A stretch of 64,000 nucleotides of DNA, taken from positions 179,242 through 243,241 of the forward strand of contig NC_057757.1 of the NCBI RefSeq assembly GCF_004010195.1, given 5' to 3'. The translations under genes were made by a program, and so were the position numbers. The notes beneath the pieces were generated by a model. That model saw only the letters and a program-made list of their open reading frames with translations, ran no database searches and had not been told where the DNA came from. This DNA is from Chiloscyllium plagiosum. Its lineage: Eukaryota. Below, piece by piece: positions 150 through 53,210 of this stretch (within the stretch, counting starts at the first letter, position 1; every line of letters begins with the position of its first letter).

Positions 150-950
150 GCTGATCTGCAGTTCTCCATTGAGCAACACACACAGCCCAGATAGTCAACT
201 ACAAAAGCAATCATCCCAATACCCACAAACGGAGCATCATCAGCCACAACAATGCTGTAGCAGCAAGGAACTACGAGCAGAAGAAAAATACCTATGCAGC
301 GTTTTCAAGAGCAGGTACCCAATAAACACTGTCCGCCAATTCTCAAACAACAAAACCAGAGACTCGAGCCACACTACCATACACCAGACTACTCTGACCC
401 CTTGGCATCGTGGGAGCCCACAAACCCACCAACACACTGGAACAACTACTAGTGAACCCAAAAGACCATGTACCACAACCAGCAACATGAATGTCATATA
501 CAAAATATCCTGCAAGGACTGCAATACGCATTACATCAGACAGACCGGCAGGAAACTAGCCAGCAGGATACAGGAGCACCAACCAGCCACCAAAAGACAT
601 GATCAGCTATCACTCGTATCCTTACACACAGGCAAAGAGGGACACCACTTTTACTGGGACAATACATCCATTCCAAGACAGGCTAAACAGAGACATGCAC
701 AGGAATTCCTAGAAGCCTGGCATTCAAACCGGAACTCCATTAATAAACACATGGGAGTTGAACCCCATTTACCAATCACTGAGTAAAAGAACTGGAAATA
801 TCACCCACCTTAATGGACCAAGTCAAATAAACAGAAAGCGGGACAGAACATCAATGCTTCAACAGAGGCTCACTGATGATGTTACCTAGCATGGTGACAA
901 AACATCTGAGAACAAACTTACCAGCTCAGCGAACAAACTCACAACCTGAA
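150..950 (+). mobile_element. Penelope-like retroelement 3' part (GIY-YIG endonuclease remnant plus terminal region with hammerhead motif)
   Basis: ORF 139-786 contains NVIYKISCKDCNTHYIRQTGRKLASRIQEH...EFLEAWHS..SINKH, typical of a PLE GIY-YIG domain. A CTGATGA hammerhead-like core follows at 873. Confidence 0.9.
869..910 (+). ncRNA. Degenerate minimal type I hammerhead ribozyme of a Penelope element
   Basis: CTCA-CTGATGA-t-GTTACC-tagcat-GGTGAC-AAAACATC-TGAG. Stem I (CTCA/TGAG) and stem II pair. GAAACGTC has become AAAACATC, consistent with two CpG-decay changes. Confidence 0.75.
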
Positions 951-1053
951 CAAGATCTCATTATCTGTTCCAAGTGAACACAGCACCAACTGGTGTCAAG
1001 CACATTGTAATGTGTAAATTGGTCTCAATTCATTAACACGAGCTTCGCACTAC

Positions 1054-1183
1054 CTGCCAGGATGTCGGTCTCCCTTCCCCTGGGAGACTGGCTGAAATCT
1101 ATTCCAGAACTATCAGACCGCCCAATGGAAACAGAGGATGTTTTGAGGCTGGGGCCTCGTGAAAAACTGCCGTGGCCCTCCAT
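1054..1183 (-). CDS. Candidate first coding exon of an unidentified gene (exon 1201-1054)
   Basis: Acceptor ttctttcattgcag| at 1201, an in-frame upstream stop, and a strong-context ATG (gaaATGG) at 1183. It reads MEGHGSFSRGPSLKTSSVSIGRSDSSGIDFSQSPRGRETDILA+G and ends at donor CAG|gtagtg. It lies ~1.4 kb downstream of the CpG island. Protein not recognised. Confidence 0.45.
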
Positions 1184-1354
1184 TTCTTCACTTCATATAT
1201 CCTGCAATGAAAGAACATTGTATGACACTTTCATCTCCAGCCATTGTACATTCCCAATGAGAATTCACACAGCTCCCCAAACTATCCATCTCAGATAAGA
1301 GAAATGCAAAATAGGAATTCTGAACCTGTGCAGTCATTGTCCTCAAAGTGTTTC

Positions 1355-2000
1355 AGGGATACAGTGTAGAGGGAGCTTTATTCTGTCTGTAACCCCATCA
1401 TGTCCCTGTCCTGAGAGTGTTTGATGGGAGAACACTGTAGAAGGAGCTTTACTCTGTATCTAACCCATTGTGTCCCTGTCCTGGGAGTATTTGATGGGGA
1501 GACCATGTAGAGGGAACTTTATTTGGTATCTAACCCCGTACCGTCCCTGTCCTGGGAGTGTTGAATGGAGGGACAGCATAGAGGGAGCTTTATTCTGTAT
1601 CCAACCTCATGTTCAGTAAGTGTTTTATAGGGGACAGTACAGACAGAGCTTTACTCCGTACCTAAACCCATGCTTATCCTTGTCCTGGGAGATTTTGTTG
1701 GGGGGGCGGACATTGCAAAGAAAGCTGTACTCTGTATCTAACCCTGTGCTGTCCCTACCCTGAAAATGTTTGATGGGGACAGTGTAGAAGGAGATTTACA
1801 CTGCACCTGACCCTGTGCTGTCATTGTGTTGGGAGTGTTTGATGGGAGGGAGCGTAGAGAGAGAGAGAGAGCTTTCATTTTTAAAGAGTGGAGGGAGTTT
1901 TATTTCCAGATCAAAAGAGTAGAGAAAGCTTTAGTTTGTATCTAATTTCCCATTCTGTCCCAGTCCTGGGAGTGGTGGACTGGGACAATGTAGAGGGTGC
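1355..2000 (+). repeat. ~70 bp satellite (GGGACAGTGTAGAGGGAGCTTTACTCTGTATCTAACCCCGTGCTGTCCCTGTCCTGGGAGTGTTTGATGG)
   Basis: About 9 diverged tandem copies. Confidence 0.9.
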
Positions 2001-2408
2001 ACTGCATGAGGTGATGGTTACGAGGGAATGTAAATATTGGTGCTCTCCTTTTTCTCCATGAATACACCAGAACTACACCACTATAGATGTGACATTTGAA
2101 AGTGAGTGAAATGAAATGTTAACCATAACGAGGAAGAATTTGTAAATTCCTGTGGAAGCATTCACATCCTGACAATGTCTGAAGAGCACCTCACACCGAT
2201 GACGTACTTTGGAAGGAGGGTCACAGTACAACAGTGACAGCCCTAACGATGCATGGCAGGATCCCAAAAACAAAAGACTTGGGGAATGCCACCAACACTG
2301 ACCCTGGTACCAGTGAGTGCACAGGGGTGATAGACCAAACCAAAGGTTACATGGGGTCTGTCACACCCAGTGGAGGGAGACAGGGCTTCATTCGAAAGAT
2401 TATACTTT

Positions 2409-2585: not shown

Positions 2586-2589
2586 TCCT

Positions 2590-2950
2590 GACTCTCCGTT
2601 TGATATTTTCTTTCGCCTCCTGTTGCCGGGGACACCCGTCCAACCGAACCTGCTCGCCGCGGCCTTCCGCGCTGATTGACGGTCCCTCCACCAATTAGAG
2701 CGCGGCTCCACACTAGCCCCGCCGAGCCGGGCCAATAGGAGGCAGGGACCAACCCTCCAGCAGTGTTGGTTGAGAAGGCACGGCGACCGTTGGAGCAGTT
2801 TCCCGGGCAACGGGGCCACGCGATGGTGGGGCGTGTCCTGGAGCCCCGTCGATCAGTCGCCTCCCACTCGCTGATTGGCCGCCGCCTGTTGCCCCGGGAC
2901 ACTGGTCGCTGGGGTCTGCGCACGTTTCCAAATTTGTCAATGGGCTCTTA
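2590..2950. promoter_or_regulatory. CpG-island promoter with multiple CCAAT boxes
   Basis: The only strongly CpG-rich unique stretch in the window. CCAAT/ATTGG-type motifs lie at ~2672 (ctgattga), ~2692 (ccaat), ~2732 (ccaat) and ~2872 (ctgattggc), with GC-box-like elements. Confidence 0.65.
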
Positions 2951-4230: not shown

Positions 4231-4239
4231 TAAGTTCCA

Positions 4240-6934: not shown

Positions 6935-7200
6935 CCTCCACCATAAGGTTTGGACTGACAAGGGGCAAGTGACATTCACGTTATACAAATACCAGGCAGT
7001 GACTTTCTCCAACAAGAGAGAATCTAGCCACCACGCTGTGACATTCAGCGGCATTACCATCATTGAATCCCCAGACAATCTACACCCTGGGCGTTACCAT
7101 TGACCAGAAACTCAACTGGGCATATTGTATAAACACAATGGCTACAACAGCAGGTCAGAGGCTGGAAATCCTGCAGTGAGTAACTCACCTCCTAACTTCT
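6935..7200 (+). mobile_element. Second LINE family fragment
   Basis: Similar to the post-RT region (WADKWQV...) of the 51440-53950 family. Confidence 0.65.
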
Positions 7201-7202
7201 GA

Positions 7203-7340
7203 AGGAGAAAGTGAGGACTGCAGATGCTGGAGATCAAAGCTTAAAAATCTGTTGCATAAGCCCGAAACGTCGATTCTCCTGCTCCTTTGTTGCTGCCTGA
7301 CCTGCTGCGCTTTTCCAGCAACACATTTTTAAGTCCTGAC
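7203..7340. mobile_element. Short Penelope-related foldback element (partial hammerhead GCCCGAAACGTC)
   Basis: Shares arm sequence with the elements at 10507, 20169 and 52343. Confidence 0.75.
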
Positions 7341-7344
7341 TTCT

Positions 7345-8375
7345 GAATACAAGCCCAGCCCATCCAACCTTTCCTCACCACTGCCTTACACCCACACCAT
7401 TCATTAGAACTTCTCTGAACTGTCTCCAACACATTGACATCCTTCCTTACATAAGGAGACCGATTCTGTAACACAGTACTCCACATGTGCTCCATCAATG
7501 TCCTGTATAACTGACACATACCCTCCCTACTTTTGTATTCAGTCCAGCCTTGCAGAAAAGGATGGCATTCTATTACTTGCTGTTCCTGCGCACTGACCTC
7601 TCGTGATACTTGTACACAGAAACCCAGTACCCTCTGCAGTTGTAATCTCTCACCATTTAGATAATATGGCTCCCTTCCTTTCTTCCCGGCAAAATGGACA
7701 ATTTCACATTTTGTCACATGTTTGCCCACTGTCAGTTCCTCTCTATGCTGACTGGAACAAAGTCAGGCAGGTGGACATTACAGAATATGAGTCCCCTGAC
7801 TGGGGCTGTTAACCTGGTCCAATCAGGGAGTCCTGGCTGACAGATAGAAACAGGAGTGTCGGAGGTTCTGTTCTCTCTGAGAGCTGGCTCTGAGGGAGCT
7901 GGATCAGTGTCCTGGACTCTCTGCATGTAAGTAAAGGGTGACTTGGTGATGGCATACTGATCTCTGGGGAGTTATTTCACTATCCATATCTTTTCGTAGC
8001 TTCTTGATGTCTGCTTCCCAACCTACCTTCTTGCCTTTCTTTGTGTCATCAACAGATTAGGCAACCATACCTTTTATTCCTTCATCCAAATCATTTGTTT
8101 AAATTGTAAACCATTAAGGTCCCACCACAAATCTTGCCAACCCAAAAAGGACGCAGTCTTATCTCTTGCCTCTGCTTCCTCTTAGCCAGTTGATCTTGTA
8201 TTGATTCCGAAATGTTAACTCCACACCCTTACACCATGAGCTTTTAGTTCCCACAACAACCTCTGATGGCACCATATCAGTGCCTTCTGGAAGTCTGTAC
8301 ATCACCAGCTCCCCCCGAACCACAGCATGTTATCTCCTCAAAGAATGCCAATAGAGTGGTCACACCAGATTTCCT
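7345..8375 (-). mobile_element. Old CR1 LINE fragment interrupted by a solo LTR
   Basis: KCEIVHF...RSPYVRKDVNVLETVQR on the minus strand. Confidence 0.75.
7730..7979 (+). mobile_element. Solo LTR (~250 bp)
   Basis: TG...CA termini, CCAAT and an AGTAAA polyA-like signal. A related copy lies in reverse at 36609-36835. Confidence 0.65.
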
Positions 8376-8379
8376 GATT

Positions 8380-9175: not shown

Positions 9176-10506
9176 TTTAGCCAAGAATCATTGAAAATTA
9201 TCAATATAAATCTACACTGTACAAGACCCTAGAGCTCAAGGTCCAGATTGCATGGCATTACATTGAGCCTACATCACAGAAACAGGCCATTCGGCCTATC
9301 TTCTCCATACTGGTCTCCTCCCGCCCCACAAATATGCTTGTCCCCTTACATGTTTATCCAGCCTCAGTGTCCTTCTGCCTTCAATTTATCAACAGTATTC
9401 CCCTTTCCCACTCCCTGTGAGTATGCGTTCCACATTCTAACCTTCCCAACCCCCTGTGGGAGTGAGCCCCACTTTCCCCCCCAACCTCTGGGTGAGGACG
9501 TTAGTCCGCGACTGTCGGACATTGAGAGCCCATAGCCCAACTCTGGCTCCCTACGTCACAAAATCAAGGTTCCATCTCGCTCTGTCCAGTCCATTGGAAC
9601 TAGCAGAAGGAAGACAATGAACTTCACAACATCACAAACCAAGTGTCGATTCAAATTTAAATCAGAACCTGACGGTGTAACGGAAAACCAGAAGTTAGGA
9701 TGCTACATGGATTTAAATCAAACACAGAGATAGCGACTCCACACAGGCATCATCCCCAGAGACGAAAGAATTATTGGGCGTGGTGTACCACAATATCCAA
9801 TAAAATCTTCCCAAGTCAAGGTAACGGACAGAGATGTTATGTTAGAGGAGAGCCACAGGATTGTTCAATGTGATTCTTAAATCAGCAAAGGTTAACCCAA
9901 TAGATTCCCAGGGTCAGGCGATTGTCCCTGGGGGGAGAGACGATGGAGAGTGGGCCTTTGTTGAGAAGGCGAGAGTCGCTGAACGAAACGGATAAAATTC
10001 GGATGCTGGGGAGCTGCTGAGAGGGAATTCATCCTCGCTGCCCTCCCCACTCTCCCCATCTCTCTCTCTCCCAACAGGTAGCTGGCACAGGGGATCCCAG
10101 GATGGGAACAAGAGGTGAACATTTCCCGTCGGACTCAAGCAGAAATTTCTGCCTTCAGAGAATAGTAAGCCCAGCTGCTGCATTTCATGATCCCACAGCG
10201 GGTTCTGAGTGAGGTCCAATAGATCATTCAGCACTCAGGAATGAAGCTACATAGGGTGGGGGTTAGGGCAGGTAACTGGACATGAGGGAAATGATTAGCC
10301 TTGATCCGAAGGAACAGCAGTTAGACTTGGGTAGTACAATGGCCTACTCCTGCCCCTATTCCACTTTCTGATATCTTGTTATGGTGAACCCTTCATGAGC
10401 CAAGCAGAGGTTCAGGTCCAGGAGCTCTCCAAGAAGCTCAGGTCCTGCAGACGTTTCAGACAGTTTCCACCCATACATCACAGCCTGCTGCCCATCAAAT
10501 CACCAA

Positions 10507-10672
10507 GGAGGAAGTGAGCACTGCGGATGCTGGGGATCAGAATCCAGAGTATGGCGCTGGAAAAGCGCAGCAGGTCAGGCCCCTGATGAAGGGCTCTTGC
10601 CTGAAACATTGATTTTCCTGCTCCTCGGATGCTGCCTGACCTGCTGTGCTTTTCCAGCGCCACACTCTCAAC
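10507..10672 (+). mobile_element. Short Penelope-related foldback element with hammerhead core
   Basis: Inverted arms (gctggaaaagcgcagcaggtcaggc / gcctgacctgctgtgcttttccagc) surround CTGATGA-agggctcttgcct-GAAAC-ATT at 10583-10610. Confidence 0.8.
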
Positions 10673-11803: not shown

Positions 11804-12048
11804 GGTCCCAAGGCAGAAGATGAAGCGTCCTTCCTCCAGGCATTGGGTGGTGAGGGAGCGGCGATGGAGGAGACCCAGGACCTGGGCATGTCCTCGACAG
11901 AGTGGGAGGGGGAGTTGAAGTGTTCAGCCATGGGGCTGTGGGGTTGGTTGGTGCGAGTGTCCCAGAGATGTTCTCTCAAATGATCTGCAAGTAGGCTTCC
12001 TGTCTCCCCGATGTAGAAGAGACTGCATCAAGAGTAACAGATACAGTA
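11804..12048 (-). mobile_element. Penelope-like element GIY-YIG fragment (second family)
   Basis: Minus strand LYIGETG...REHLWDTRTNQPHSPMAEHFNSPSHS. Confidence 0.85.
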
Positions 12049-13214
12049 TTTAAGACAGTCAGTCCTTGATTAATAGGGATCAAGAGTTATGCGGAGAAGG
12101 CAGGAGAATGGGGTTGAGAAACCTATCAGCCACGATCGAATGGTGGAGTGGACTCAATGGGCTGATTGGCCTCATTTCTGCTCCTTTATCTCATGATCTA
12201 TTTATGGACGTACTTGTATATGGCACTGGAAGCAATCTAGAGGTTGCTACTTTAGGGTCCTGCTCACTAATTTTCTGCCTAGATCCCAAGCTTCTATTTG
12301 CAGGGTCACATGTCTCTTCAGCAATGTTGTGAGTCAAAGTAGTCCCTGACCTCTGGCTGTTAACCCTACCGCAGAAGATCGTCCTGCCATGAAGTCTCTG
12401 AACCTGGTACCAGGAAAGCTACAAACTATCCTGGAGTCACAGAAATAAAATAAGCAACTGCGGATGAAACAAAAGCAGAAATCGTTGGAGAAACTCAGCA
12501 GATCTGGCAGTATTTATCAGAAGAAAGAGTTAACATTTCAAGTCTGCCATTTCTTTGTCAGTGATTGCAGCTGCTGAGCAAGCTCAAGACACAAATCAGT
12601 TGATGAAACTTCCCACTTGTGGGCCTGTCTGGTCAACAAATCTCCTCAGGCCAACGTTTGACCCCCCTGCACACCCTTCCCTTCCATGAGAGACTTTCCA
12701 TGTACAGAGACCAAAACAGCAGACAAGAACACAGCTGGGGCATCAGAGGCACCAAGATAATGGTTAAGAGCCAATAGGAAGCTACACAATTGTAAGTCAT
12801 TCTCGCAGTTATGAACCGACCAGGTATGGATTGGATCAGCAAGAATCAAAACATTTGCAATTGTGACACACAGAGTACTGCACCAACTTCTCAGCCCTCA
12901 GCCTGGCCGACCATGGCAGAGTAATGTCATCACAGTAAGCAGGGTCTGGGAACATCAGAAACCATCAAGCTGGACCAAGCAAGACGAACAATACTCCAGG
13001 CTGCTTTCCTTTGATAGCCAATGAAATGTATCTCAAGGAAATGGTCAGCTAGAGGCCAGCACATTCTCCGCTCTGAATATTTGGGGATATTGACTCTTAT
13101 TGTAAAGTGACTCAGACTCAATAACTCAATCAAAACATTGGTATTATGTCCCATGAAAGCACACAGTAAATTAGCAGGATCGCTTTACAATCACTCCACC
13201 TCAGCAAACAAGGA

Positions 13215-16359: not shown

Positions 16360-19300
16360 CACTGAAGATACAGACAAGCCCCTAGACTGGAGGTACAGTC
16401 ATTCCCCTAGACCAGAGGTACAGTCAATTCCCAAGACTGAAGATACAGACAATCCCAGAGACTGAAAATACAGACAAGCTCCTAGACTGAAGATATACAC
16501 CGTCCACTAGATGGAAGATACAGACAAGATACTACAGTGAAGATATAGATAACCCCCTAGACGGAAGTTACAGTCAAACCCCTACAATGAAGATACAAAC
16601 AATCACCAAGAGTGAAGCCAAAGTCAATCCCCTAGACTGAAGATACAGTCAATACCCTGAACTGAAGACACAGTGATCCCCTACACTGAAGATGCAGACA
16701 TTCTCCTAGACTGAAAACACAGAACAATTCCCTGGACTGAAAATACAGACAAGCCCCTAGACTGTAGATGCAGACCGGTCCCTAGACTGAGGACACAGAC
16801 AATCCCAGAGACTGAAGATGCACTCAATCCCCGAGACTGAAGACAGACAAGCTCCTAGACTGAAGATACAATCATCCAGACTGAAGATACAAACCCCTAG
16901 GCTGAAGATAGAGACAATCCCCGAGACTGGAGACAAAGAAGCCCCTGGAATGAAGACACAGACAATTCCAAAGACTGAAGGTAAAATAATCCCTAAACTG
17001 AAGCTACAGACAAACCCCTAGGCTGAAAATACAGATAAGCCCCTAGACTGAAGACACAATCAATCCCCGAGATTGAAGACCCAGACAAGCCCCTAGACCA
17101 AAGACATAGTAAATCTACTACACTGAAGACAGACAATCCCCTGCACTGAAGATACAAACAATCCCCTAGACTGAAGATACAAGCAATCCTCAAGACTGAA
17201 GGTACACACAAGCCCATAGACTGAAGATACAGACATTCCCCAAGATTGAAGATACAGTCAATTCCTGAGACTGAACATAAGATAACCCCTAGACTGAAGA
17301 TAAGGACAAACCCCTAGTCAGAAGATACAATCTATCCCCGGGACTGAAGATACAGACAAACCCGTAGACGGAAGACAAAGAGAAGCCATGAGAAGAAAGA
17401 TACAGACAATCCCCGAAAGTGAAGATACAGTCAACCCCTAGACTGAAGATATAGTCAATCCCCCAGGCTGAAGACACAGACAAGCCCCTAGACTGAAGAT
17501 ACAGTCAATTCCCGAGACTGAAGATAAGATAACCCCTAGACTGAAGACACAGACAATCCCCTAGGCTGAAGATATAGTTAATCCCCGAGACTGACGACAC
17601 AGACAATCCATGGAATGAAGACACAGAGAAGCCATGAGAAGGAATACACAGACAATTCCCAAGACTGAAGACACAGTCAATCCACTAGATTGAAGACACA
17701 ATCAATCCCCTGGACTGAAGATACAGACAATCCTGTGGACTGAAGACACTAGACTGAAGACACAGTCAATCCACGAGACTGAAGATACAGACTATCCCCA
17801 CAGATTGAAGATACAGACAATCCTCTTGACTGAAGATACAGACAAGCGGATAGACTGAAGATACAAACAATCCCCTGAAGATACAGTCAATCCCCCAGAC
17901 TAAAGACACAGTCAACCCCTAGACTGAAGATACAGACAATCCCTGAGACTGAAGATACAGTTAATCACCTTGACTGAAAATACAGACAAGACCCTAGACC
18001 GACGTAACAGAGATGCATCTAGACTGATGACACAGTCAATCCCCGAGACTGACGACGTAGACAATCCTCTAGACTGAAGATACAGAAAATCCCATAGACT
18101 GAAGACACAGCCAATCCCCTGGAGTGAAGATACAGACAAGCCCCGAGACTGAAGATACAGTCAATCCCCTGGAGTGAAGATACAGACAAGCCTCTAGACT
18201 GAAGACACAGTCAATCCCCAAGAGTGAAGACACAGCTGAGCCCCGAGACTGAAGATACAGACAATCCCCAAGACTGAAGATACAGTCAAGCCCCTAGACT
18301 ATGGATATAGACAAGCCCCTAGACTGAAGATTGAGACAATCTCCTGGATTGAAGATACAGTCATTCCCCTAGGCCGAAGATACAGAGAAACCACTAGAAG
18401 GAAGATACAGACAATTCCCGAGACTGAAGATACAGTCAATCCACGAGACCGAAGATACAGTCAATTCTGCAGACTGAAGACATAGTCAATCCCCTAGACT
18501 GAAGACACAGTCAATCCCCTAGACTGAAGACACAGTCAATCCCCTAGACTGAAGGTACAGACAATCTCTGAGACTGAAGATAAAGACAAGCCCCTAAACT
18601 GAAGATACAGTCAGTTCCCAAGACTGAAGATATGATAACTCCTAGACTGAAGATACAGACAATCCCTGAGACTGAGGACACAGTTAATCCCCGAGACTGA
18701 AGATACAGGCAAAAATACTAGACTGAAGATACAGTCTATCCCCGGGACTGAAGACATAGACAATCCCATGTACTCAAGACACAGAAAAGCCATGAGAAGG
18801 GATATACAGACAATTCCCTAGACAATCCCCTAGACTGAAGATACAGACAATCCCCTAGACTTGAAGACACAGACAAGCCCCGAGACTGAAGATACAGTCA
18901 ATCCCTTAGACTGAAGATACAGTCAGTTCCCAAGACTGAAGATATGATAACTCCTATACTGAAGATACAGACAATCTCTGAGACTGAGGACAAGTTAATC
19001 CCCGAGACTGAAGATACAGACACGCCTCTAGACTTGAATACACAGACAAGCCCTGAGACGGAAGATACAGTCAATCCCCTGGACTGAATATACAGTCAAT
19101 CCCTTAGACTGAAGATACAGTCAGTTCCCAAGACTGAAGATCTGATAACTCCTAGACTGAAGATACAGACAATCTCTGAGACTGAGGACACAGTTAATCC
19201 CCGAGACTGAAGATACAGACAATCCCCTAGACTTGAATACACAGACAAGCCCCGAGATGGAAGATACAGTCAATCCCCTAGACTGAAGATACAGTCAATC

Positions 19301-22300
19301 CCTTAGACTGAAGATACAGTCAATCGCCTGGACTTAAGATACAGCCAATCCACTAGACTGAAGATGTAGATAATCCCTGAGATTTAAGATACAGACCAGA
19401 TCCTAGGCTGAAGAAATGGTCAATCCCCAAGACTGAAGATACAGTCAATCCCCTGGACAGAAGACACAGAGAAGCCACTAGAAGGAAGATACAGACAATT
19501 CCTGAGACTAAAGATACAGTCAATCCAAGAGACTGAAGATACAGTCACAGACAAGCCCCGAGATGGAAGATACAGTCAATCCCCTAGACTGAAGATACAG
19601 TCAATCCCTTAGACTGAAGATACAGTCAGTTCCCAAGACTGAAGATATGATAACTCCTAGACTGAAGATACAGACAATCTCTGAGACTGAGGACACAGTT
19701 AATCCCCGAGACTGAAGATACAGACACGCCTCTAGACTTGAATACACAGACAAGCCCTGAGATGGAAGATACAGTCAATCCCCTGGACTGAATATACAGT
19801 CAATTCCTGAGGCTGAAGATAAGATAATCCCTAGACTGAAGATACAGACAATCCCCTAGACTTGAATACACAGACAAGCCCCGAGATGGAAGATACAGTC
19901 AATCCCCTAGACTGAAGATACAGCCAATCCACTAGACTGAAGATGTAGATAATCCCTGAGATTTAAGATACAGACCAGACCCTAGGCTGAAGAAATGGTC
20001 AATCCCCAAGACTGAAGATACAGTCAATCCCCTGGACAGAAGACACAGAGAAGCCACTAGAAGGAAGATACAGACAATTCCTGAGACTAAAGATACAGTC
20101 AATCCAAGAGACTGAAGATACAGTCAATCCCGCAGACTCAAGATACAAACAAGCACCAAGACTGAACGGAAAATGTGTTGCTGGAAAAGCGCAGCAGGTC
20201 AGGCAGCATCCAAGGAACAGGAGACTCAACGTTTCAGGAAGGGCTTATGCCCGAAACGTCGATTCTCCTGCTCCTTGGATGCTGCCTGACCTGCTGCGCT
20301 TTTCCAGCAACACATTTTCAGCTCTGATCTCCAGCATCTGCAGTCCTCACTTTCTCCACCAAGACTGAATGTACAGACAAGCATCTAGACTGAAGACACA
20401 TTCAATACCCAAGACTGAAGATACAGACAATCCCTGAGACTGAAGATACAGACAAGCCTTGAGACTAGAAATACAGTCAATGCCCTAGACTGAAAACACA
20501 GTCAATCGTCTAGACTGAAGATACAGTCGCTCCCCTAGGCTGAAGATAACGACAATCCCCGAGACTGAAGATAAAGACAAGCCCCTTGACTGAAGATACA
20601 GTCAATTCCTGAGACTGAAGATAAGATAACCTCGAGACTGAAGATACAGACAAGCCCCTAGACTGAAGATACAGACAAGCCTTGAGACTGAAGATACAGT
20701 CAATCCCCTAGATTGAAGACACAGTCACTTCCCTAGGCTGAAGATAACGACAATCCCCGAGACTGAAGATAAAGACAAGCCCCTAGACTGAAGAAACAGT
20801 CAATTCCTGACACTGAAGATAAGATAACCTCGAGACTGAAGACACAGACAAACCCCTAGACTGAACATACAGTCAGTTCCAAGACTGAAGATATGATAAC
20901 CCCTATACTGAAGATACAGACAATCTCTGAGACTGAGGGACACAGTTAATCTCCGAGACTGAAGATACAGGCAAAAACCCTGGACTGAAGATACAGTCTA
21001 TCCCCTGGACTGAAGACACAGACAATCCCGTGTACTGAAGACACAGAAAAGCCATGGGAAGGAATATACAGACAATTCCTGAGACAATCCCCTCGAATGA
21101 AGATACAGCCAATCCCCTAGACTGAAGACATAGACAAACTCCTGGACTGAAGATACAGGCAATCTTGTGGACTGAAGGTACAGACAAGCCCCTAGACTGA
21201 TGACGCAGTCAATCCCCAAGACTGAAGACACAGACAATCCCCTGGACAGAAGACACAGAGAAGCCACTAGAAGGAAGATACAGACAATTCCTGAGACTGA
21301 AGATAGAGTCAATCCCCCAGACTGAAGATACAAACAAGTACCGAGACTGAACGTACAGACAAGCATCGAGACTGAAGACACATTCAATCCTCAAGACTGA
21401 AGATACTGTCACTCCCCTAGGCTGAAGATACAGACAATCCCCGAGACTGAAGATAAAGACAAGCCCACAGACTAAAGACACAGTCAACCCCTAGACAGAA
21501 ACAACAGACAATCTTGTAAGCTGAAGAGACAATCAATCCCCGGATTGAAGATACAGTCAATCCCCGAGACTGAAGATACAGAGAAGCGCCTAAACTGATG
21601 ATGCAGACAATCCCCTGGACTAAAGATACAGACTATCCCCTAGGCGAAAGACACAGTCAATCCCCAAGACCGAAGACACAGGCAAGCCCCTAGACTGAAG
21701 ATACAGTCAAACCCCAAGACTGAAGAAACTGACAAATCCCTAGACCAAACAGACAGTCAATTCCCCTGGACTGAAGATACAGTCAATCCCCCAGACTGAA
21801 TATACAGATAGGCTGATAGACTGAAGGTACGAACAAAGCTCTAGACCAAAGATACAGACTAGCCACTTAGATTGAAGATACACACAATCCCCGTGATTGA
21901 AGACACAGTCAATTGTCGAGACTGAAGATAAAATTAATGCCTAAGAATGAAGACACAGACAAGCCCCTAAGCTGAAGGTACAGCAATTCCCTAGACTGAA
22001 GATAAAAACAGGCCCTGAAGACATAGTCAATCCCTGAGACTAAAGATACAGACAATCCCCGAGACTGAAGATACAGTCAGTCCCCAAGACTGGAGATACA
22101 GGCAAGCCCATAGACTGAAGATACAGACAATCCCCGAGACTGAAGATACAGACAAGCCCCTAGACTGAAGATACAAACAATCCCCTAGTCTGAAGATATA
22201 GACAACCCCCTTGACTGAAGATACAGTCAACCCCTTAGATTGAAGGTACAGACAATCCCCTAGACTGAAGACACACTCAATCTCCTCGACTGAAGATACA

Positions 22301-33156: not shown

Positions 33157-33306
33157 CAGAGGAACCTCGATTATCCAAACGTCGATTATCCAAATTTTGG
33201 ATTCTCCAGACTAGATCGCAAAGTGCTGATGCTTGGCTAAACTCTGTTATCCAGCATTAGATTATCTGCACCTGCCTGTGCCATTCGGATAGTCAAGGTT
33301 CCTCTG
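33157..33306. mobile_element. Tigger/pogo-like MITE
   Basis: TIRs CAGAGGAACCTCGATTATCC / GGATAGTCAAGGTTCCTCTG, flanked by TA on both sides. Confidence 0.85.
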
Positions 33307-35922: not shown

Positions 35923-36608
35923 AAGCGGTTCTGAAGAAGTCACATTGAACTTGAAACATTAACTTGGCTTCTCTCTCCATAGATGTTGTCAGATTTGCTG
36001 AGTTTCTCCATCACTTTGTCTTATTTCAACATTTACTTACAAGAGAAACTAGAAATCCTTCTGTACTTGGGAACCCACTATAGAGATTTATTAAATAAAC
36101 ATTGTAAAAAACAAGTTCATGTTCCTGACATCTCTCACTGAAATTTCAAGAAACAAATTTCCATTTTTAATGTTTACAAATATTTGCTCGCCCAAATAAT
36201 ATCTCTCCCCAGGGATTGTTCAGAATTGCACTCAGCTCTAAAACTTCAAGACTGACATCTAGCCTTGTTTGGGTGAGCATCTGTTTCAGCTGTCTGATTA
36301 AGACTTCCCCATTGCTTTAGTTTTGGAAGCCACTGCACCTTTTTCTGAAAGCCCCCCTCTGCCTGAAAGCAATGAGGCTGACAATTTCCAAACTGATGCA
36401 TTCTACTTGCTTGCTAAATCCAATGTACCAAAAAGCTCCAGAGGCCTGGCTTGCTTGTTGTGAAATCTGCTTTCAGCACATTTGTGACAAAGTTTTCAAA
36501 TTCACTGCTCACACCCACACAAAAAAACCATCTACATGCACCATAAAGATACCTGAGAGCTGCCTCCCTTCATGGTGTCAGTAAGTCTGCTTTTAACTGA
36601 GGACAGCC

Positions 36609-36949: not shown

Positions 36950-38466
36950 TTTGGCAGACAAATAAACCTTTGCCTTTTGAACTGATTTCCCTGCAGCTTT
37001 AATGAATTGATCTACCCTCCCAAATACATGCTGCTAACAAAGCAAAGAAACATCTCAAACTTGTTTTCCTGCTGTTGGTGAATCTGCCACTGCATCTTGA
37101 TCCCCAGGTTCTATTTCCGATCCTCATGCTAATAGTTTTCTGAGTCCGACTTTGAGAAAGCTTTTCAGGGTGCATCTATCTGTGTGAAAGGGATGACGAT
37201 CTCCTATCTGACTCCTCTGCACATGCCTCAAATTCTCGTCAACAAAAATAGAAATTGCTGGAAAAGCTCAGCGAGTCTGGCAGCATCTGTGGAAAGAAAT
37301 CAAGCTTAACATTTTGGGTCAAGTGACCCTCCGTCAGAATCCTGAGTTAACTGTGATTTCTCTCCAACAACCTGCTGAGCTTTTCCAACATTTCCTGCTT
37401 TTGTTTCTGATTTCCAGCACCCTCAGTTCTTTCTAGTTTTATTTTATAGTTCTTGTTGTTTGACATCTTTTATGAACTTATCTTTGGATTTGTTCAAGGC
37501 CTCTCGGTCTTCCCAATCACATGGCCTGCTGCTGCAGTTTTCCTGATTTGTAATGTATTCCTTATTAAACTGCACACTTCCTTGCTTTGTCTCTTTATCG
37601 GGATGGCTACTGTTTATTAATCAAATTTTGACACATTAATCAAATTCCTTTCAATGGCCCAGGGTCTCTTTCTGGGGAATAAAAACCCCAAAAAACTGTG
37701 GATGCTGGAAATCAGAAACCAAGTTTCTTTTTAGGGTATGTTTTCTGCTGAGCTCACTGTTAAAGCTCACAGTTCAAATGCTAACCCTCACCCTGGCCCT
37801 GACTCAATGCTCTAATTTCCAGCCTTCTATCTCTGTATTGCATATGTCCAACCCATGGGCCTAAACTCCTGTCCCTCATCCTGTACATGATCCAGCTTGT
37901 ATATTTTCCAGTGTCCTCTACTGCTCTGCTTACAATGTCCTTCAGTATATTTTACACATATTTTCTTACAAAGCTCATATCTAGCATTTATTAATGAGCT
38001 TCTTGTAAAGCAATACAGTAATGGCTTGATTGTGGAAATTGCAAACTCACAAATTTTCCAAACACAGCAGCTTTGTCATTTTCAACATCCAATTTGATGA
38101 CATTCTGGGCTAAATTTTCAATTTTATCACCAACTGCCCTCTACGATCGCTACTGCAAAGGAATGCATTCCAAAAACTGTTTGTTATTCTGAAATTGATT
38201 CTCGCAAGGTATATTTATCTGCACATTTAACCCCTGTCTAAACAAGGAGTTAAGACGTTAGCGCTGTCTAATCGTTTAAACACCAACAGAGATTGGAGAA
38301 TTTCCAAATGAAAGTTCTGCAGTCTTGCATACAATCTACGGAATTCCATCATGTACTCCTCCACGGTGTTATCCTCAATGTTTATAAATGTGTCAAAATC
38401 TGACCATGCCTCCGAAGCAATCCATTTATCACTTTTGTGATCAATTTTATCCAAAAACATTAACAA
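36950..38466 (-). mobile_element. Decayed Copia-superfamily (GalEa-like) LTR retrotransposon internal relic
   Basis: Gag-like FLDKI..SDKWIASEAWSDFDTF...VEEYMMEFRRLYARL...LLVFKRLD (38466-38227), post-protease KLDVENDKAAVFGKFVSLQFPQSSHYCI (38110-38000) and TGKYTSW motif (~37900). These resemble recalled GalEa-type polyproteins. Confidence 0.6.
37241..37445. mobile_element. Short foldback Penelope-related element (older subfamily)
   Basis: Arms gctggaaaagctcagc / gctgagcttttccaac, with a degenerate hammerhead-like core on the minus strand. Confidence 0.6.
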
Positions 38467-45124: not shown

Positions 45125-45380
45125 TAAATCCCCTGAGAAAAAGAACAGGAAATGACCTCACCATAGGAAATGACATCACCACAGGAAATGGCATCACCAA
45201 CCCAAGGAAACCCAAACATATAAACAGAAAGTGGGCTACACCACCAATGCTTCGTCCAGAGACCCAATGATGATGTTATCTAATATGGTGACAAAACATC
45301 TGAAACAAACCTCCCAGCTCAGCAAGCAAACCTCCAACCAGAACCTCAACCGAGCTACAAATCTTCTCAAAACCCGCTAA
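45125..45380 (+). mobile_element. Penelope-like element 3' end with degenerate hammerhead
   Basis: Homologous to 770-950. ATGATGA...GGTGACAAAACATC at 45267-45300. Confidence 0.8.
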
Positions 45381-45764: not shown

Positions 45765-46185
45765 TACAGCGGACAAACTAGCAGGAAACTTGCAACCAGA
45801 TACCCGAACACCAACTGGCCACTGAAAGACACGACCCATTCTCACTCGTTTCCATACAGACAGACAACAAAGGACACCATTTTGACTGGGGCAACACACA
45901 CATCCTAGGACAGGTGAAACAAAGACACGCACAAGAATTCTCAGAGGCATGGCATTCTAACCAGAACTCCATCAATAAACACACCGACTTAGATCCTATC
46001 TACATTCCCTTAAAAAAATGAACCGGAAATGACATCAGCCACCTTAAGAAACCAAGACCTATAAATAGAGAGGCAGGACATACACCAGCATTTCACCAGA
46101 GACTCTCAGTGATGGTATGACCGAGTCATGGTGATGAAACATCTGAAGACAAACCTTCCAGCTCAGCAAGCTAACTTACAGATTT
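45765..46185 (+). mobile_element. Penelope-like element GIY-YIG end plus terminal region
   Basis: GHHFDWGNTHILGQ..QRHAQEFSEAWHSNQNSINKH, with GAAACATC at 46136. Confidence 0.85.
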
Positions 46186-48286: not shown

Positions 48287-49364
48287 CCGTGGTGTCAGAG
48301 CGGGAGACTGAGGGAGGGGATGTGGATGGGGGGGATTTGTCTGTGAGCGTTTTGGGTCTCACACTGAGCAAACTGGATCCCCGGGGGATGGTGTGTCCCT
48401 GCTCCCAATTGAAAGCCCCGCACTGTTTCCTCAAAGCCTGACCCTGTGAGGATTATAGGTTAGGGGAATGGATTCCCATAAAGTTTGGATTTGTCAGTGG
48501 GCAGGTTCCTGAGACCCCTGTCCACTCTGGCACAGTCGGAGTGTCCCGGAAGGTGCGGTAAAGTCTGTCTGGGGCGGGTGGTAACAGTGCTTTAAATCAG
48601 CTCTGGTTTTTACATCCAGGTTATATCGAAATTGTTAACATGTAGATTGAGGCTTGCTGACTGAAACCATTTTCAACTCAATCTGTGCACCCTGGTTCCG
48701 TTATTGTGGGAATGTCTAACTCAGCATCGTCCTAAGGAATGCCAAATAAATCTCCCCATCGCAGGCTGAATCCATGTTCGGGTGTCAATCCATTTCCATT
48801 CCTGCAATTCATGATTCACTCTGGCATCAGGACTGAGTAAAGGGCAAGGTCAGGGCTGTTAAAGGCGGTGCCTGATCCACAGAGGGACATTTGCATGCTC
48901 AAGTCTTTAAATTGGCAGCACACATTAAGGGAAAGCTGTTTTTAAAACCAGAGAGGATCCTGAGCTTTGGAAGTACAAGCATAAGTGAATTGTGTTGAGC
49001 CTTCCTAACTGATGGATTAAGGTTCCCTCAGCTGGAGTGTCAGGGCCCATTTACAGAAGGCCTGCAATTCTAGAAATAACTCCTGGGATAGATTGTTGCA
49101 GGAGGACAGATTGAGAGACTGCCGCAGTTTCCAGAACAATGAGGAATGATCATACTGGAACTGACAGCACTCCTCCTGTGATCATCTTTGCTGTGGTGGT
49201 GAAGGAGGTTTGTATCCCCTTGTTTAGAGCGTGGAACCAAAGGGTACTGCCTCTAAATATGGGACAGTCAATTTTAGACTGAGATGCGGAAGGCTTTCTT
49301 CTCTCTGAGGGGAGTGCATATTTGGAATCCTCTCCACAGTAGGTTATGAAAGGTTAGTTCCTAA

Positions 49365-49930
49365 GTTAGAGAGTCCAACAGGTTTATTTGGAAACACTAG
49401 CTTTCGGAGCGCTGCTCCTTCATCAGGTGGTTGTGGAGAATTAGATTATAAGACACAGAATTTATAGCAAAACTTTACAGTGTGATGTAACTGAAATTAT
49501 ATATTGAAAAAGACTTGGATTGTTTGTTAAGTCTCTTATCTGTTAGAATGACCACGTTGGTTTCAGTTCTTTCATATGTAAATCGCAAAACCTTTTTAAA
49601 AGTTACATTCTCAAGTGAACTTTAACAATTGGTGTCATGTTGGCCCAGCTAATATATTGAAGGTATGAGCTTTCCTGTGTGAGGCTGTCTGTGGCCACAA
49701 TGGCCAGACTGATTCTAATCTAAAAGATGGACTAACAGAAACTTACATGGATTCATGCAGTATTTGAGCAATGTAAAATGTAATTCTGCAAGTACAGAGA
49801 CACCCCACAAATGTATATGTGTACGTGTGCATGCATGTGTGTGGGGTGGGGGCGCGGGGTATGAGTGTCTGTGAGAGAGTGTGTGTATGTGTGTGTGAGT
49901 GTCTGTAAAGAGATATAAGATCAATAGGTG
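49365..49930 (-). mobile_element. Penelope-like element 3' terminal region (third family)
   Basis: Hammerhead core followed by AATAAA-cctgttggact. A related tail fragment lies at ~33310-33380. Confidence 0.7.
49395..49429 (-). ncRNA. Minimal type I hammerhead ribozyme, core intact
   Basis: Minus strand CAC-CTGATGA-A-GGAGC-agc-GCTCC-GAAAG-CTA-GTG: perfect 5-bp stem II, palindromic AGCT helix III, CUA triplet and stem I CAC/GTG. Confidence 0.8.
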
Positions 49931-50139: not shown

Positions 50140-51376
50140 AAGCGGATAGAGCAGGGTGAGGAATAGATGTTGCAGGTTCCAGGGCTTAGGTCTTCCATTA
50201 AAAACAGGCAAGGCGTTAAAAGAGAGGGAGGTGTGGCCTTGTTAGTCAAAGATAGTATAACAGTGGCTGAGAGAACTTTTGATGAGGACTCTACTGAGGT
50301 AGTGTGGGCTGAGGTTACAAACAGGAGAGGAGAGGAGAGGTCACACTGCTTGAAGTTTTTTATAGGTCTCTGCAGAGTTCCAGGGAGGTGGAAGAGAGGA
50401 TTAGCAAAATTATTCTGGGTAGGAGTGAAAGGAACAGGGTAGTCATTATGGAGGATTTTAACTTGCCCAACATTGACTGGAAATACTATAACTCTAGTAC
50501 GTCGGATGCATCAGTTTTTGTCCAATGTGTACAGGAAGGTTTCCTGACACAGTATGTCGAAGGGCCGACAAGTGGTTAAGGCCACACTAGATCTGGTACT
50601 TGGTAATGTGAGGTGATTCACTTTGGGAAGAATAACAGGAAGGCAGAGTACTGGGTCAATGGTAGTGTGGGTGTGCAGAGGGATCTTGCAGTCCACGTAC
50701 ATAGATCCCTGAAAGCTGCCACCCAGGTTGATAGTATTGTTAAGAGGTCATACGATGTGTTAGGTATCATAGGTCGAGGGATTGAGTTCCGGAGCCGCAA
50801 TGTCATGCTGCAATTATACAAAACACTGGTGCGGCCACACTTGGAATATTGTGTACGGTTCTGGTCGCCCCATTACAGGAAGGATGTGGAAGCATATGTG
50901 GAAGTATTGGAAAAGGTGCAGAGGAGATTTACCAGGATGTTGCCTGGTCTGGAGGGAAGCTCTTCTGAGGAAAGGCTGAGAGACTTGGGTCTGTTCTCAT
51001 TGGAAAGAAGAAGTCTCAGAGGAGATTTGATAGAGACATACAAGATGGTCAGAGGATTAGATAGAATAGACAGTGAAAGTCTTTTTCCTCGGATGATGAT
51101 GTCAGCTTTATGAAAGGGCATAACTAAAAATTGCGGGGTGATAGATTTAAGACAGATGTCAGAGACAGGTTCTTTACGCAGAGAGTGGTAAGGGTGAGGA
51201 ATGCAATACCTGCTAATGTAGTTAACTCAGCCACATTAGGGAGATTTAACCAATCCTTAGATAAGCACATGGATGATGATGGGATAGTGTCGGGAGACAA
51301 GCTGAGAATAGTTCACAGGTCAGTGCAACATCGAGGGCCGAAGGGCCTGTTCTGCGCTGTACTGTTCTATGTTCTA
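50140..51376 (+). mobile_element. Internally deleted CR1 LINE (endonuclease joined to post-RT region)
   Basis: GGVALLV...DFNLPNIDW...LDLVL is joined at ~50606 directly to CEVIHFG...LEYCVRFWSP, followed by a CR1 tail. Confidence 0.9.
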
Positions 51377-52342
51377 AGCTTTCAGTCCTTTACTGTTCAA
51401 ACACCTATCTGTCTTTGCCTTAAATACATTCAACGAGGGAATTCCACATACCGTCCTCCCTTGGCTCCTGGATCCGTATCCTCCATGTTGAACAACGTTT
51501 GGAGGAAGCGCTGAGGGTGGCAGGGTCACAGAATGTCCTCTGGGTGAGGTATTTCAGTGTCTCACCATCAGAGTAGCTCAGCAGTAGCATTACTGATGGA
51601 GCTAGGCGGGTGATAAAGGACAGAGCTGCTAGAATGGGTTTGCAGCAGGTGGTGAAGGAGTCAATAAGAAGGAGAACCAGACCTGACCTCCTCCTTCCCA
51701 ATCTGCCAGCTGCAGATACATCTGTCCATGACAGTATCGGTAAGAGTGACCACCGCACAGTCCTTGTGGAGACAAAGTCTCACCCCCACATTAAGAATCC
51801 CCTCCATCGTGTTGTGTGGCACTATCACCGTGCTCAATGGGACAGACTTCAAACAGATGGAGCAACTTCACACTGGGCATCCCTGAGGCACTGAGGGCCA
51901 TCAACAGCAGCAGAACTCTACTCCAGCATAATCTGTAACCTCATGGCCCGGCATATCCCTCACTCAGCCATTACCATCAAGCCACCTGGTTCAGTGGGGA
52001 GTGCTGGACAGCATGCCAGGAGCAGCACCATGAACAATGAGGTGAAGCTAAGGAACAAGGCTAGTTACGTGCTAAACCGCACAAGCAGCAAGTGATAGAC
52101 AGAGCTAAGCAATCCCACAATCAACAGGTCAGATTGAAACTCTGTAGTCCTTCCACATCCAGTCATGAATGGTGGTGGGACAACTAAACAACTCACTGGA
52201 GGAGGATGCTCCATAGATATCCCCATCCTCAATGATGGAGGAGCCCAGCACATCAGTGCGAAAGGTAAGGCTAAAGCATTCACAGCAATCTTCAGTCAGA
52301 ATTGCCGAGTGGATGATCCATCTCAGGTTCCACTAGTGATTA

Positions 52343-52445
52343 GGAGAAAGTGAGGACTGATGAAGGGCTTTTGCCCGAAACGTTGATGTTCCTGCTCCTC
52401 AGATGCTGCCTGACCTGCTGTGCTTTTCTAGCACCACACTCTCAT
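52343..52445 (+). mobile_element. Short Penelope-related element with intact hammerhead core
   Basis: CTGATGA-A-GGGC-tttt-GCCC-GAAAC-GTT at 52357-52384, nested in the LINE. Confidence 0.8.
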
Positions 52446-53104
52446 CTTCATCCAGTGATCCCCAGCATCACAGATACCAGTCTCCAGCGAATTCTATTCA
52501 CTCCACATGATATCAAGAAACAGCTGGAGGCACTGGATACTGCAAAGGCAATGGGCCCCGAGAACATTCCGGCAATAGGACTGAAGACGTGTGCTCCAGA
52601 TCCTGCCACTCCCCTAGCCAAGCTGTTCCAGTTACAACACCCGGCATCTACCCGACAATGTGGAAAATTGCTCAGGTATGTCCTGTACACAAACAGCAGG
52701 ACACATCCAACCCGGCCAATTCCCACCCAATCAGTCTACTCTCCATCATCAGTAAAGTGATGGAAGGGGCTACCAAGCAGCATCTGCTCAGCAATAACCT
52801 GATCAGTGACGCCCAGTTTGGGTTCCACCAGGGCCACTCAGCTCCTGACCTCATTACAGACTTGGGTCAAACATGAACAAAAGAGCGGAATTCCAGAGGG
52901 AAGGGGAGAGTGACAGCCCTTGACACCAAGACTGCATTTGACCGAGTGTGGCATCAAGGACCCTGGCAAAACTGGAATCAGTGGGTGAAAGTGAGCACTG
53001 GTCAAGCTGATTGGGCAGAGCTGCTAAACTGGCGCTGCAGCAGGTGGTGAGGGAAAAACATACCTGACCTCATCCTTACCAAACTGCCAGCTGCAGATGT
53101 GTCC

Positions 53105-53210
53105 AGGAACCGTGTTCCTGCTGAAGAGCTTATGCTCGAAACATTGATTCTCCTGCTCCTCGGATGCTGCCTGACCGGCTGCGCTTTTCCAGCACCACAC
53201 TCTTCGACTG
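53105..53210 (+). mobile_element. Short Penelope-related element with degenerate hammerhead
   Basis: CTGCTGA-A-GAGC-ttat-GCTC-GAAAC-ATT plus the shared arm. Confidence 0.75.

What the first reader, a model, noticed from the sequence alone, without database searches (positions are those of the whole stretch)
869..53210. Dispersed population of minimal hammerhead ribozymes carried by several Penelope-related families
Seen: CTGA(T/A)GA-stemII-GAAA(C/G)-NUH motifs or clear derivatives at 873(+), ~7260 (half), 10583(+), ~20241 (half), ~35931(+), ~37310(-), 45267(+), ~46110(+), 49395-49429(-), 52357(+) and ~53118(+). Stem II varies while still pairing (GGGC/GCCC, GAGC/GCTC, GGAGC/GCTCC, GTTACC/GGTGAC). 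Helix III is reduced to a palindrome (ACGT or AGCT). Established: Penelope-like elements carry such minimal type I hammerheads, which are thought to cleave as dimers. Inference: about ten copies in 64 kb imply a very large genomic ribozyme load, partly within host-gene introns.
Basis: partly seen in the sequence, partly recalled or inferred. Interest (0 to 1): 0.7.

Follow-up and report, generated by a model that had tools for sequence, protein, structure and literature searches.

The report
Decayed shark Penelope hammerhead stubs
These motifs are real pieces of a tiny self-cutting-RNA (hammerhead) motif already described for Penelope-like jumping genes, but only one of the twelve hammerhead-bearing copies found in this shark-type window is complete, so they are likely fossil end-stubs of the jumping gene rather than a large load of working ribozymes.

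Summary
All 11 sites exist, plus a missed twelfth (12561-). They fall into four families (A-D). A follows a Penelope/Poseidon-type GIY-YIG remnant. D's 35-nt hammerhead recurs behind a Neptune-type endonuclease in a marine contig. B and one C copy show the known PLE layout of head-to-head arms and a one-sided tail.

Only 49426(-) passes a full minimal-hammerhead descriptor (0 in 40 shuffles). 52357 has an intact core but no stem I. In the nine A/B/C cores, 15 of 18 core CpGs are hit. Stems differ between families and still pair; within a family there is one compensatory case.

In runs that hold these families, tens of thousands of contigs match each of B and D. RNA reads of family D are polyadenylated about 27 nt behind the predicted cut, and most span the cut with an intact G12. 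So the motif load is large, but efficient cutting is not seen. No host gene was identified, so the intron claim is unsupported.

This is a known kind (Cervera and De la Pena 2014). The scan has already reported these hammerheads, the two-arm layout and the poly(A) use many times on other DNA, including this genome.

The parts
150..786 (+). Broken C-terminal part of a Penelope/Poseidon-type PLE ORF (RT thumb region plus GIY-YIG endonuclease with CxxC between GIY and YIG), directly upstream of the family A pLTR
   Evidence: tblastn E 1e-37 to 8e-41 to shark RT + GIY-YIG proteins P0002, P0004
826..950 (+). Family A pLTR: TATA-like box 47 nt before C3; hammerhead with C3 at 873, 4-bp stem I and 6-bp stem II; G12>A and 16.2>A, predicted dead
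7204..7333 (.). Family B two-arm stub: inverted tail arm 7255-7204 and direct arm 7254-7329 starting in loop II (no CUGA box); 14-bp target duplication (13/14) at 7190-7203 and 7334-7347
10507..10672 (.). Family B two-arm stub: inverted tail arm 10580-10507 and direct arm with C3 at 10583; core boxes intact, but C11.1>U, 16.2>A and no stem I
11804..12035 (-). Separate remnant of a second PLE-type GIY-YIG endonuclease; no pLTR could be linked because an N gap follows
   Evidence: E 7e-4; tblastx to L002, E 3e-6
12443..12566 (-).
20167..20356 (.). Family B two-arm stub inside the 25-nt satellite: direct arm from G8 through the tail, inverted arm from the 3' strand of stem II to the proximal end; perfect 13-bp target duplication
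35927..36026 (+). Family C stub; C3 at 35931; stem II collapsed, 16.2>A
37241..37446 (.). Family C two-arm stub: minus arm with C3 at 37337 (A9>G, G12>A, 15.2>U) ending at the proximal site; plus arm starting near the cut site and ending at the tail
45217..45345 (+). Family A pLTR: TATAAA 48 nt before C3 (45267); C3>A, G12>A, 16.2>A
45782..46180 (+). GIY-YIG remnant followed by a family A pLTR: TATAAA 49 nt before C3 (46109); C3>G, A9>G, 16.2>A
49372..49910 (-). Family D pLTR and upstream region with a (CA)-rich stretch. TATAAA at about 49466-49461; the only complete minimal hammerhead (C3 49426, G12 49405, predicted cut between 49398 and 49397); AATAAA at 49388-49383; family poly(A) site near 49370-49372. 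The 5' boundary is approximate.
52343..52447 (.). Family B stub in a LINE remnant: short inverted tail arm joined at C3 (52357). Core and ACGU intact; H17 is U (family majority C); stem I 5' strand absent
52987..53206 (.). Family B insert with a 16-bp target duplication (14/16): a 14-nt inverted tail end (read by eye), about 115 nt of LINE-like sequence, then the direct arm with C3 at 53118 (A6>C, 16.2>A, H17 U; stem II GAGC/GCTC)

Best explanation
The motifs are minimal type I hammerheads in four repeat families that are likely all pseudo-LTR ends of Penelope-like retrotransposons (PLEs); all but one of the twelve window copies are truncated or mutated and so predicted to be inactive. Shown: the anatomy; family A lying behind a PLE endonuclease remnant; the family D hammerhead lying behind a Neptune-type endonuclease in an unrelated contig; CpG-biased decay; head-to-head arms with a one-sided tail of about 37-40 nt; and poly(A) addition just behind the uncut family D motif. 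Inferred mechanism: the PLE enzyme cuts both target strands. Each end likely primes reverse transcription at one of two fixed sites flanking the tail. Copying runs toward the RNA front, which is predicted to lie just before the hammerhead (TATA boxes 40-49 nt before C3), so short copies end in or just before the uncut motif. Once in the genome, the core's CpGs (C11.1pG12, C15.2pG16.2) likely deaminate and kill most copies. In the live element the hammerhead would cut slowly, as a dimer through the 4-nt palindrome and/or with help from the element's protein, to process tandem transcripts. It is not an efficient stand-alone ribozyme in host RNA.
For: PLE link: (family A behind RT/GIY-YIG relatives from bamboo and zebra shark; P0002 reads on into the pLTR). 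L002 has a CX2-5CxxC linker, a GIY-YIG, then a pLTR whose hammerhead matches 49429-49395 at 33 of 35 nt, with a 5-bp stem I and a downstream AATAAA; L001 has the same pLTR next to an inverted RT piece. Layout: 5 of 5 family B inserts and 1 two-arm C insert have one arm ending at about +54 to +60 and the other at about +97 from the cut (B ruler; the 53118 tail arm was read by eye). Target duplications score >=10 in 3 of 5 B inserts, against 1 of 300 random pairs. This is the published PLE pattern (PMC3846280, PMC8557442 passages), and two RT start sites with both strands cut and extended were shown in vitro (PMC11167929). Decay: 15 of 18 core CpG sites hit, against 6 of 90 other core bases (Fisher p about 9e-6 per base). 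The same CpGs are the main listed variants among laid contigs. RNA: 1826 of 3954 laid reads have a T-run loose end at 49372 where DNA contigs continue into the family tail; depth does not fall across the cut (2464 versus 2516); G12>A is 440 of 2461 (18%) in RNA against 14-16% in DNA. Published minimal PLE hammerheads do not cut as monomers, cut weakly as dimers, and are dispensable for insertion in vitro.
Against: No ORF was linked to families B or C. Pattern scans for them found nothing in the microbial and viral collections, so their PLE status rests on layout and motif. Two of five B target duplications (scores 5 and 6) and the C one (score 3) are within the chance range (scores >=5 in 33 of 300 random pairs). 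The reads come from many family copies (5 of 3954 were 99% alike or better), from a species label that may not be this window's, and from a library whose tissue I do not know; a few loci can dominate, as the strand-specific variants show. The 85% filter leaves out old copies, so the genome-wide intact fraction may be higher than in this window yet lower than in the lay tables. The transcription start is predicted from TATA spacing (textbook knowledge) and from pile-ups of copy ends; it was not mapped.
Confidence: 0.85

Rival explanations
1. The intact minority is a functional regulatory load. Family D stubs give host transcripts a poly(A) site, and dimer- or protein-assisted cleavage about 27 nt upstream removes the tail, so these copies tune host mRNA ends.
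For: AATAAA lies 10 nt after the cut and is used in vivo. Most laid D and B copies keep G12. The order hammerhead-then-AATAAA is also seen in the unrelated L002 element. Earlier scan notes report U6 joined at the cut sites (not tested here).
Against: Uncut polyadenylated reads are not enriched for dead cores beyond the neutral loop-CpG control: G12>A 18% versus 14-16%; loop CpG 13% and 29% versus 12-17% and 21-24%. No host gene was identified. Family B RNA comes from both strands, as passive read-through would.
Confidence: 0.08
2. Families B, C and D are independent non-autonomous ribozyme elements (non-LTR retrozymes or SINE-like elements) that spread as RNA circles made by double self-cleavage.
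For: The stubs are short and have no ORF. Non-LTR retrozymes are reported in one chondrichthyan and derive from PLE pLTRs (bioRxiv 10.64898/2026.07.22.740005). A few contigs show a piece joined back to just before C3 (table 5c).
Against: No tandem hammerhead array was found in the window. The copies have variable 5' ends, inverted arms and a one-sided tail. Their ends do not sit at the cut, and they usually include the uncut core, which cleaved monomer circles would not give. Family B stem I is weak.
Confidence: 0.06
3. The matches are chance CTGANGA...GAAA juxtapositions in a repeat-rich window.
For: A 25-nt satellite holds 137 CTGANGA boxes. Rfam gives no hit. The fold z-score of the best copy is only -1.2.
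Against: 0 full or core-intact hits in 40 shuffles. Four families with different paired stems. The same 35-nt motif occurs in an unrelated PLE.
Confidence: 0.01

Closest known systems
Minimal hammerheads (min-HHR) in pLTRs of metazoan PLEs; Cervera and De la Pena 2014, PMC4209133 (parts 1-2 of 4 read: results, discussion, start of methods; supplements not seen)
   Same: Type I fold, one unpaired base between A9 and 10.1, G10.1-C11.1 pair, short helix I, palindromic 15.2-16.2 with no loop III, many sequence families per genome, mostly solitary truncated copies, some pairs on opposite strands; thousands per vertebrate genome.
   Different: No shark is named in the parts read. The counts there (about 4,000 in coelacanth, 9,000 in Xenopus) are lower than the contig counts here suggest, though contig counts are not copy numbers. 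CpG decay and poly(A) use were not in the parts read.
Poseidon PAc element of Anolis; Frangieh et al. 2024, PMC11167929 (parts 1-2 of 4 read)
   Same: Two reverse-transcription start sites flank the tail, and both DNA strands are cut and extended. The hammerhead cuts only with protein and is not needed for insertion, and no RNA-seq ends were found at the cut. The window's arm ends and the uncut reads fit this.
   Different: That work is in vitro on one lizard element. Here the evidence is genomic junctions and reads, and pairing one proximal with one distal end per insert is my inference.
Complex EN+ PLE insertions (inverted pLTR, optional 30-40 bp tail at one end, TSD); PMC3846280 and PMC8557442 (passages read)
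   Same: Head-to-head arms, one-sided tail, target duplication, TATA box in the pLTR, captured foreign sequence between pLTR pieces.
   Different: The inserts here are only about 105-220 bp with 13-16 bp duplications (8-10 bp in the rotifer passages). That paper proposes self-priming on an antisense template rather than two-ended priming.
Non-LTR retrozymes; Li et al., bioRxiv 10.64898/2026.07.22.740005 (part 1 of 5 and passages read)
   Same: Type I hammerheads derived from PLE pLTRs; present in a chondrichthyan.
   Different: Retrozymes are defined by tandem units that each have a complete hammerhead; none was found in this window.
Dimer-cleaving small PLE hammerheads; Lunse, Weinberg and Breaker (PMC5785218; not held, seen only as a title and a summary passage in review PMC6765202)
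   Same: Palindromic, very short stem III; activity as dimers.
   Different: I could not compare their sequence families or rates.

Membership tests
Minimal PLE hammerhead (min-HHR) | Core boxes CUGANGA and GAAA plus NUH intact | tested here: met
   Met for 49426, 52357 and 10583 (and 35931, whose stem II has collapsed); not met for the other 8 of 12 copies
Minimal PLE hammerhead (min-HHR) | Stem II with one base after A9 and G10.1-C11.1 | tested here: met
   Fully paired with G-C in 873, 45267, 52357, 53118, 37337 and 49426
Minimal PLE hammerhead (min-HHR) | Palindromic 15.2-16.2 in place of helix III | tested here: met
   Intact in 49426 (AGCU), 52357 and both half copies (ACGU); broken by CpG changes in the other 8 of 12
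Minimal PLE hammerhead (min-HHR) | Short helix I closing a type I fold | tested here: inconclusive
   3-4 bp in 49426 and 873, 5 bp in L002; family B has only about 2 bp plus a mismatch and most B stubs lack the 5' strand
Minimal PLE hammerhead (min-HHR) | Self-cleavage as a dimer or with protein | not testable with these tools
   Reads cannot show the short 3' product
EN+ Penelope-like element | [quoted passage not shown] | tested here: met
   Family A directly; family D motif through L002 and L001; not shown for B and C
EN+ Penelope-like element | Inverted 5'-truncated arm, 30-40 nt tail at one end, target duplication | tested here: met
   6 of 6 two-arm inserts have a one-sided tail; the duplication is above chance in 3 of these 6
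Penelope/Poseidon versus Neptune clade | Absence or presence of the CX2-5CxxC linker before the GIY-YIG (PMC8557442) | tested here: inconclusive
   The linker is absent in family A relatives and present in L002; no RT tree was built and family D's own ORF is not in the window
Non-LTR retrozyme | Tandem repeat with a complete hammerhead in consecutive units | tested here: not met
Rfam hammerhead families | Match to an Rfam hammerhead covariance model | tested here: not met
   No hammerhead match at E<=10; a motif without helix III may simply lie outside these models
Domesticated intronic hammerheads of amniotes | Single conserved copy in a host intron | tested here: inconclusive
   No host gene identified; the copies belong to high-copy families; orthologous conservation was not tested

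The most novel reading that the evidence does not exclude
The family D pseudo-LTR is a complete mini transcription unit of about 100 nt: TATA box, hammerhead at the RNA front, AATAAA and poly(A) site. Its many intact genomic stubs end shark transcripts with an uncut ribozyme 27 nt before the poly(A) tail. When PLE protein or a partner RNA is present (for example in the germ line), cleavage strips the tail, making a transposon-activity-dependent decay switch spread over very many host RNAs.
Probability: 0.08. Interest if true: 0.65.

Novelty: new member of a known kind. Interest (0 to 1): 0.22.

Why it matters
The motif, its host element and its massive dispersal are published, so the finding as stated is ordinary. 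Its use is as material. Shark PLE stubs are very many, and their junctions record how PLEs integrate (two fixed priming sites, one on each side) and whether the RNA was cut before copying, which are open points of PLE biology. The 49426 copy is a natural complete minimal hammerhead next to a poly(A) signal that the family uses, which makes monomer, dimer and protein-assisted cleavage directly testable. The correction also matters: counting motifs overstates working ribozymes, because CpG decay hits G12 and the dimer palindrome first.

Tried and rejected
- Whole genome: none is held, so there is no genome-wide count or within-family covariation test.
- Rfam: no hammerhead match.
- MAFFT misaligned family A against the others; that alignment was not used, and positions were anchored by script instead.
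- Pattern scans for family B in metagenome, viral and prokaryotic genome contigs and for family C in viral contigs found 0 matches. These collections are not expected to hold shark DNA.
- No RNA holder was listed for 49300-49900. Run X22 laid 0 reads, which is no test.
- 'Places where many molecules begin or end' was empty in both lays; this says little for this library type.
- Using core-mutation frequencies in family B RNA as a sign of cleavage was rejected: G12>A is 24% in sense versus 10% in antisense reads, but C11.1>U is 9% versus 33%, and an A15.1>C variant appears in 95 of 673 sense reads and 1 of 480 antisense reads, so a few loci dominate.
- Copy number from summed contig depth was rejected; the tool says it is not one.
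- Co-folding of two copies gave non-productive duplexes as the lowest-energy state and only a few kcal/mol for the 4-bp helix III; not informative for a tertiary fold.
- Host gene: Pfam scans, a splice-signal scan with 11 candidates and a search with candidate exon 10078-10164 (one unrelated bacterial repeat protein) found none.
- In-cis dimers: 52357/53118 (761 nt apart) and 45267/46109 (842 nt apart) are same-strand pairs, but each pair has a broken palindrome and a missing stem I strand or core changes, so productive dimers are unlikely.
- The extra G at 5' ends claimed in earlier notes was not tested properly; 53118 fits, but the joint letters are mixed.
- Literature searches for shark-specific reports listed none; only open-access text is searched.

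Full report
Observation. All 11 listed sites exist. Self-BLAST groups them into four families: A (873, 45267, 46109), B (7260, 10583, 20241, 52357, 53118), C (35931, 37337-, and a missed copy at 12561-) and D (49426-). B and C share some similarity downstream of the cut. A descriptor scan gives 1 complete minimal hammerhead (49426-), 2 with intact core and palindrome, 3 with intact core and stem II, and 5 with at most one core change; the means in 40 shuffles were 0, 0, 0 and 0.3. Rfam has no matching hammerhead model at E<=10. The motif is real; the count of complete motifs is 1 of 12.

Anatomy. Each family has its own stem II and stem I sequence, and the least-damaged copies pair: GTTACC/GGTGAC with CTCA/TGAG in A; GGGC/GCCC in B; GGGTC/GACCC in C; GGAGC/GCTCC with CAC/GTG in D. 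This is covariation between families. Within a family there is one compensatory case (53118, GAGC/GCTC); it was not among the variants listed at 3% or more, where 7 rows were not shown. The majority 5' strand of family B stem I (AUUC, against GAUU) gives only two pairs, a mismatch and one more pair. In the nine A/B/C cores, 15 of 18 CpG sites (C11.1pG12 and C15.2pG16.2) are changed, against 6 of 90 other core bases (p about 9e-6). That G12 and the other core bases are needed for catalysis is established hammerhead knowledge, so these copies are predicted dead. 52357 keeps its core but has lost the stem I 5' strand to an inverted arm and has U at position 17, where most laid copies have C.

What carries them. 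Family A sits directly behind broken PLE ORF ends at 150-786 and 45782-46020. Their best relatives are RT + GIY-YIG proteins annotated from bamboo shark and zebra shark, with CxxC between GIY and YIG and no upstream zinc-finger linker, which fits the Penelope/Poseidon type. For family D, a pattern scan of metagenome contigs gave 2 loci. In L002 a CX2-5CxxC linker and GIY-YIG domain end an ORF upstream of a pLTR whose hammerhead matches 49429-49395 at 33 of 35 bases, extends stem I to 5 bp and is followed by AATAAA; no other nucleotide match to the window was found. L001 has the same pLTR beside an inverted RT piece. For B and C no ORF was linked. Their layout is the published PLE one: all 5 B inserts and the two-arm C insert have head-to-head arms, with one ending at a proximal site (about +54 to +60 from the cut on the B ruler) and the other about 37-40 nt further. 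The short tail arm at 52987 was read by eye, and the BLAST end of the 52357 direct arm is blurred by similar host sequence. Target duplications of 13-16 bp are above chance in 3 of 5 B inserts (score >=10, against 1 of 300 random pairs, searched over fewer lengths); the other two B inserts and the C insert are not. Opposite-strand joints next to C3 recur in laid contigs.

Abundance. No genome is held. Two DNA runs that hold about half the sampled words of 49300-49900 gave 33,915 and 31,869 contigs on the D stretch and 44,403 and 48,300 on the B stretch. These are not copy numbers, and the runs may be from relatives, but they show very large families. Depth on D peaks over the hammerhead and falls about tenfold or more 15-25 nt upstream of C3. 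Loose ends with mixed flanks pile up at the 5' edge of stem I in D (184 and 178 contigs, agreement 0.36 and 0.41) and just before the core in B (383 and 393; there the reference itself ends, but agreement is only 0.36-0.37). TATA-like boxes lie 40-49 nt before C3 in the four long copies, which predicts a start about 10-19 nt before C3. Reading these pile-ups as copies run off the front of uncut RNA came from earlier scan notes; I tested it only partly.

RNA. In one poly(A) single-cell run (about 2% read), 3954 reads laid on D. Of these, 1826 have a loose end at 49372 whose consensus is a T run (agreement 0.76), while DNA contigs continue there into a tail that is not A-rich (523 and 614 contigs). 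So family D RNAs are polyadenylated on the hammerhead strand about 27 nt after the predicted cut and about 11-15 nt after AATAAA. Depth does not drop across the cut. G12>A is 18% in these reads against 14-16% in DNA, no more than the shift at the neutral loop CpG. If intact copies cut efficiently, the uncut pool should be enriched for dead cores, and it is not. Limits: cut products would be invisible, the reads come from many loci (5 were 99% alike or better), and a few loci can dominate. Family B RNA (2129 reads) comes from both strands and its variant frequencies are locus-driven. A second RNA run laid nothing.

Host gene. The intron claim is not supported in this window. Of 363 ORF scans against Pfam (with some overlap between sets, and with repeat regions masked in the larger set), the only hits were RT or endonuclease domains plus one weak hit below its cut-off. 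A candidate exon had no meaningful relative. A GC-rich stretch with CCAAT boxes at about 2620-2950 may be a promoter (by eye). Short exons would be missed.

Comparison with what is known. Cervera and De la Pena (PMC4209133, parts 1-2 read, supplements not seen and possibly holding a shark example) describe this motif, its many families per genome, its dispersal as truncated copies, no monomer activity and weak dimer activity. Frangieh et al. (PMC11167929, parts 1-2 read) show two RT start sites around the tail, extension of both strands, protein-dependent hammerhead cleavage that is dispensable for insertion, and no RNA ends at the cut. The inverted arm and one-sided tail are in PMC3846280 and PMC8557442 (passages). 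Passages of PMC2377424 on Drosophila Penelope describe a TATA-less internal promoter and had no match for polyadenylation terms. Searches for shark-specific reports listed none. The scan's own notes already hold these hammerheads (830 notes match the words), two-ended priming and poly(A) use behind the ribozyme; they are leads, not support.

Verdict. Real motif, known kind, correct family assignment, overstated function. Interest 0.22.

Noticed in passing
window 52987-53114 (+): Between the two pLTR ends of one target-duplicated family B insert lie about 115 nt that resemble a LINE stretch at about 51630-51720, suggesting a template switch to LINE sequence during insertion.
   Followed up: partly
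window 37349-37446 (+): The plus arm of the family C insert begins at or within 3 nt of the predicted cut site; a single case that could be a copy of cleaved RNA.
   Followed up: partly
window 49372: The 3' end of the family D copy coincides within about 2 nt with the family's poly(A) site rather than with the tail; no target duplication was seen by eye.
   Followed up: partly
window 33306-33385 (+) and 37682-37722 (-): Further stubs without a hammerhead: a family D piece starting just after the AATAAA position, and a family C tail piece.
   Followed up: no
window 16361-22330: A 25-nt satellite of about 239 copies carries 137 CTGANGA boxes without the GAAA half; a source of false hammerhead hits.
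   Followed up: partly
L002 1331-1365 and L001 967-1001: A marine-metagenome PLE with a Neptune-type linker shares 33 of 35 hammerhead bases with shark family D and nothing else at nucleotide level: strong constraint or convergence.
   Followed up: partly
P0003: A bamboo shark MAP3K7 isoform annotation ends in a family A-like PLE endonuclease region; exonisation or a gene-model artefact.
   Followed up: no
window 2620-2950: GC-rich stretch with several CCAAT and GC boxes on both strands; a possible CpG-island promoter.
   Followed up: no
window 10078-10164 (+): An 87-nt open segment with strong splice signals; no meaningful protein relative was found.
   Followed up: yes
window 33155-33310: A short element with inverted ends (MITE-like, by eye) next to the family D stub.
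   Followed up: no
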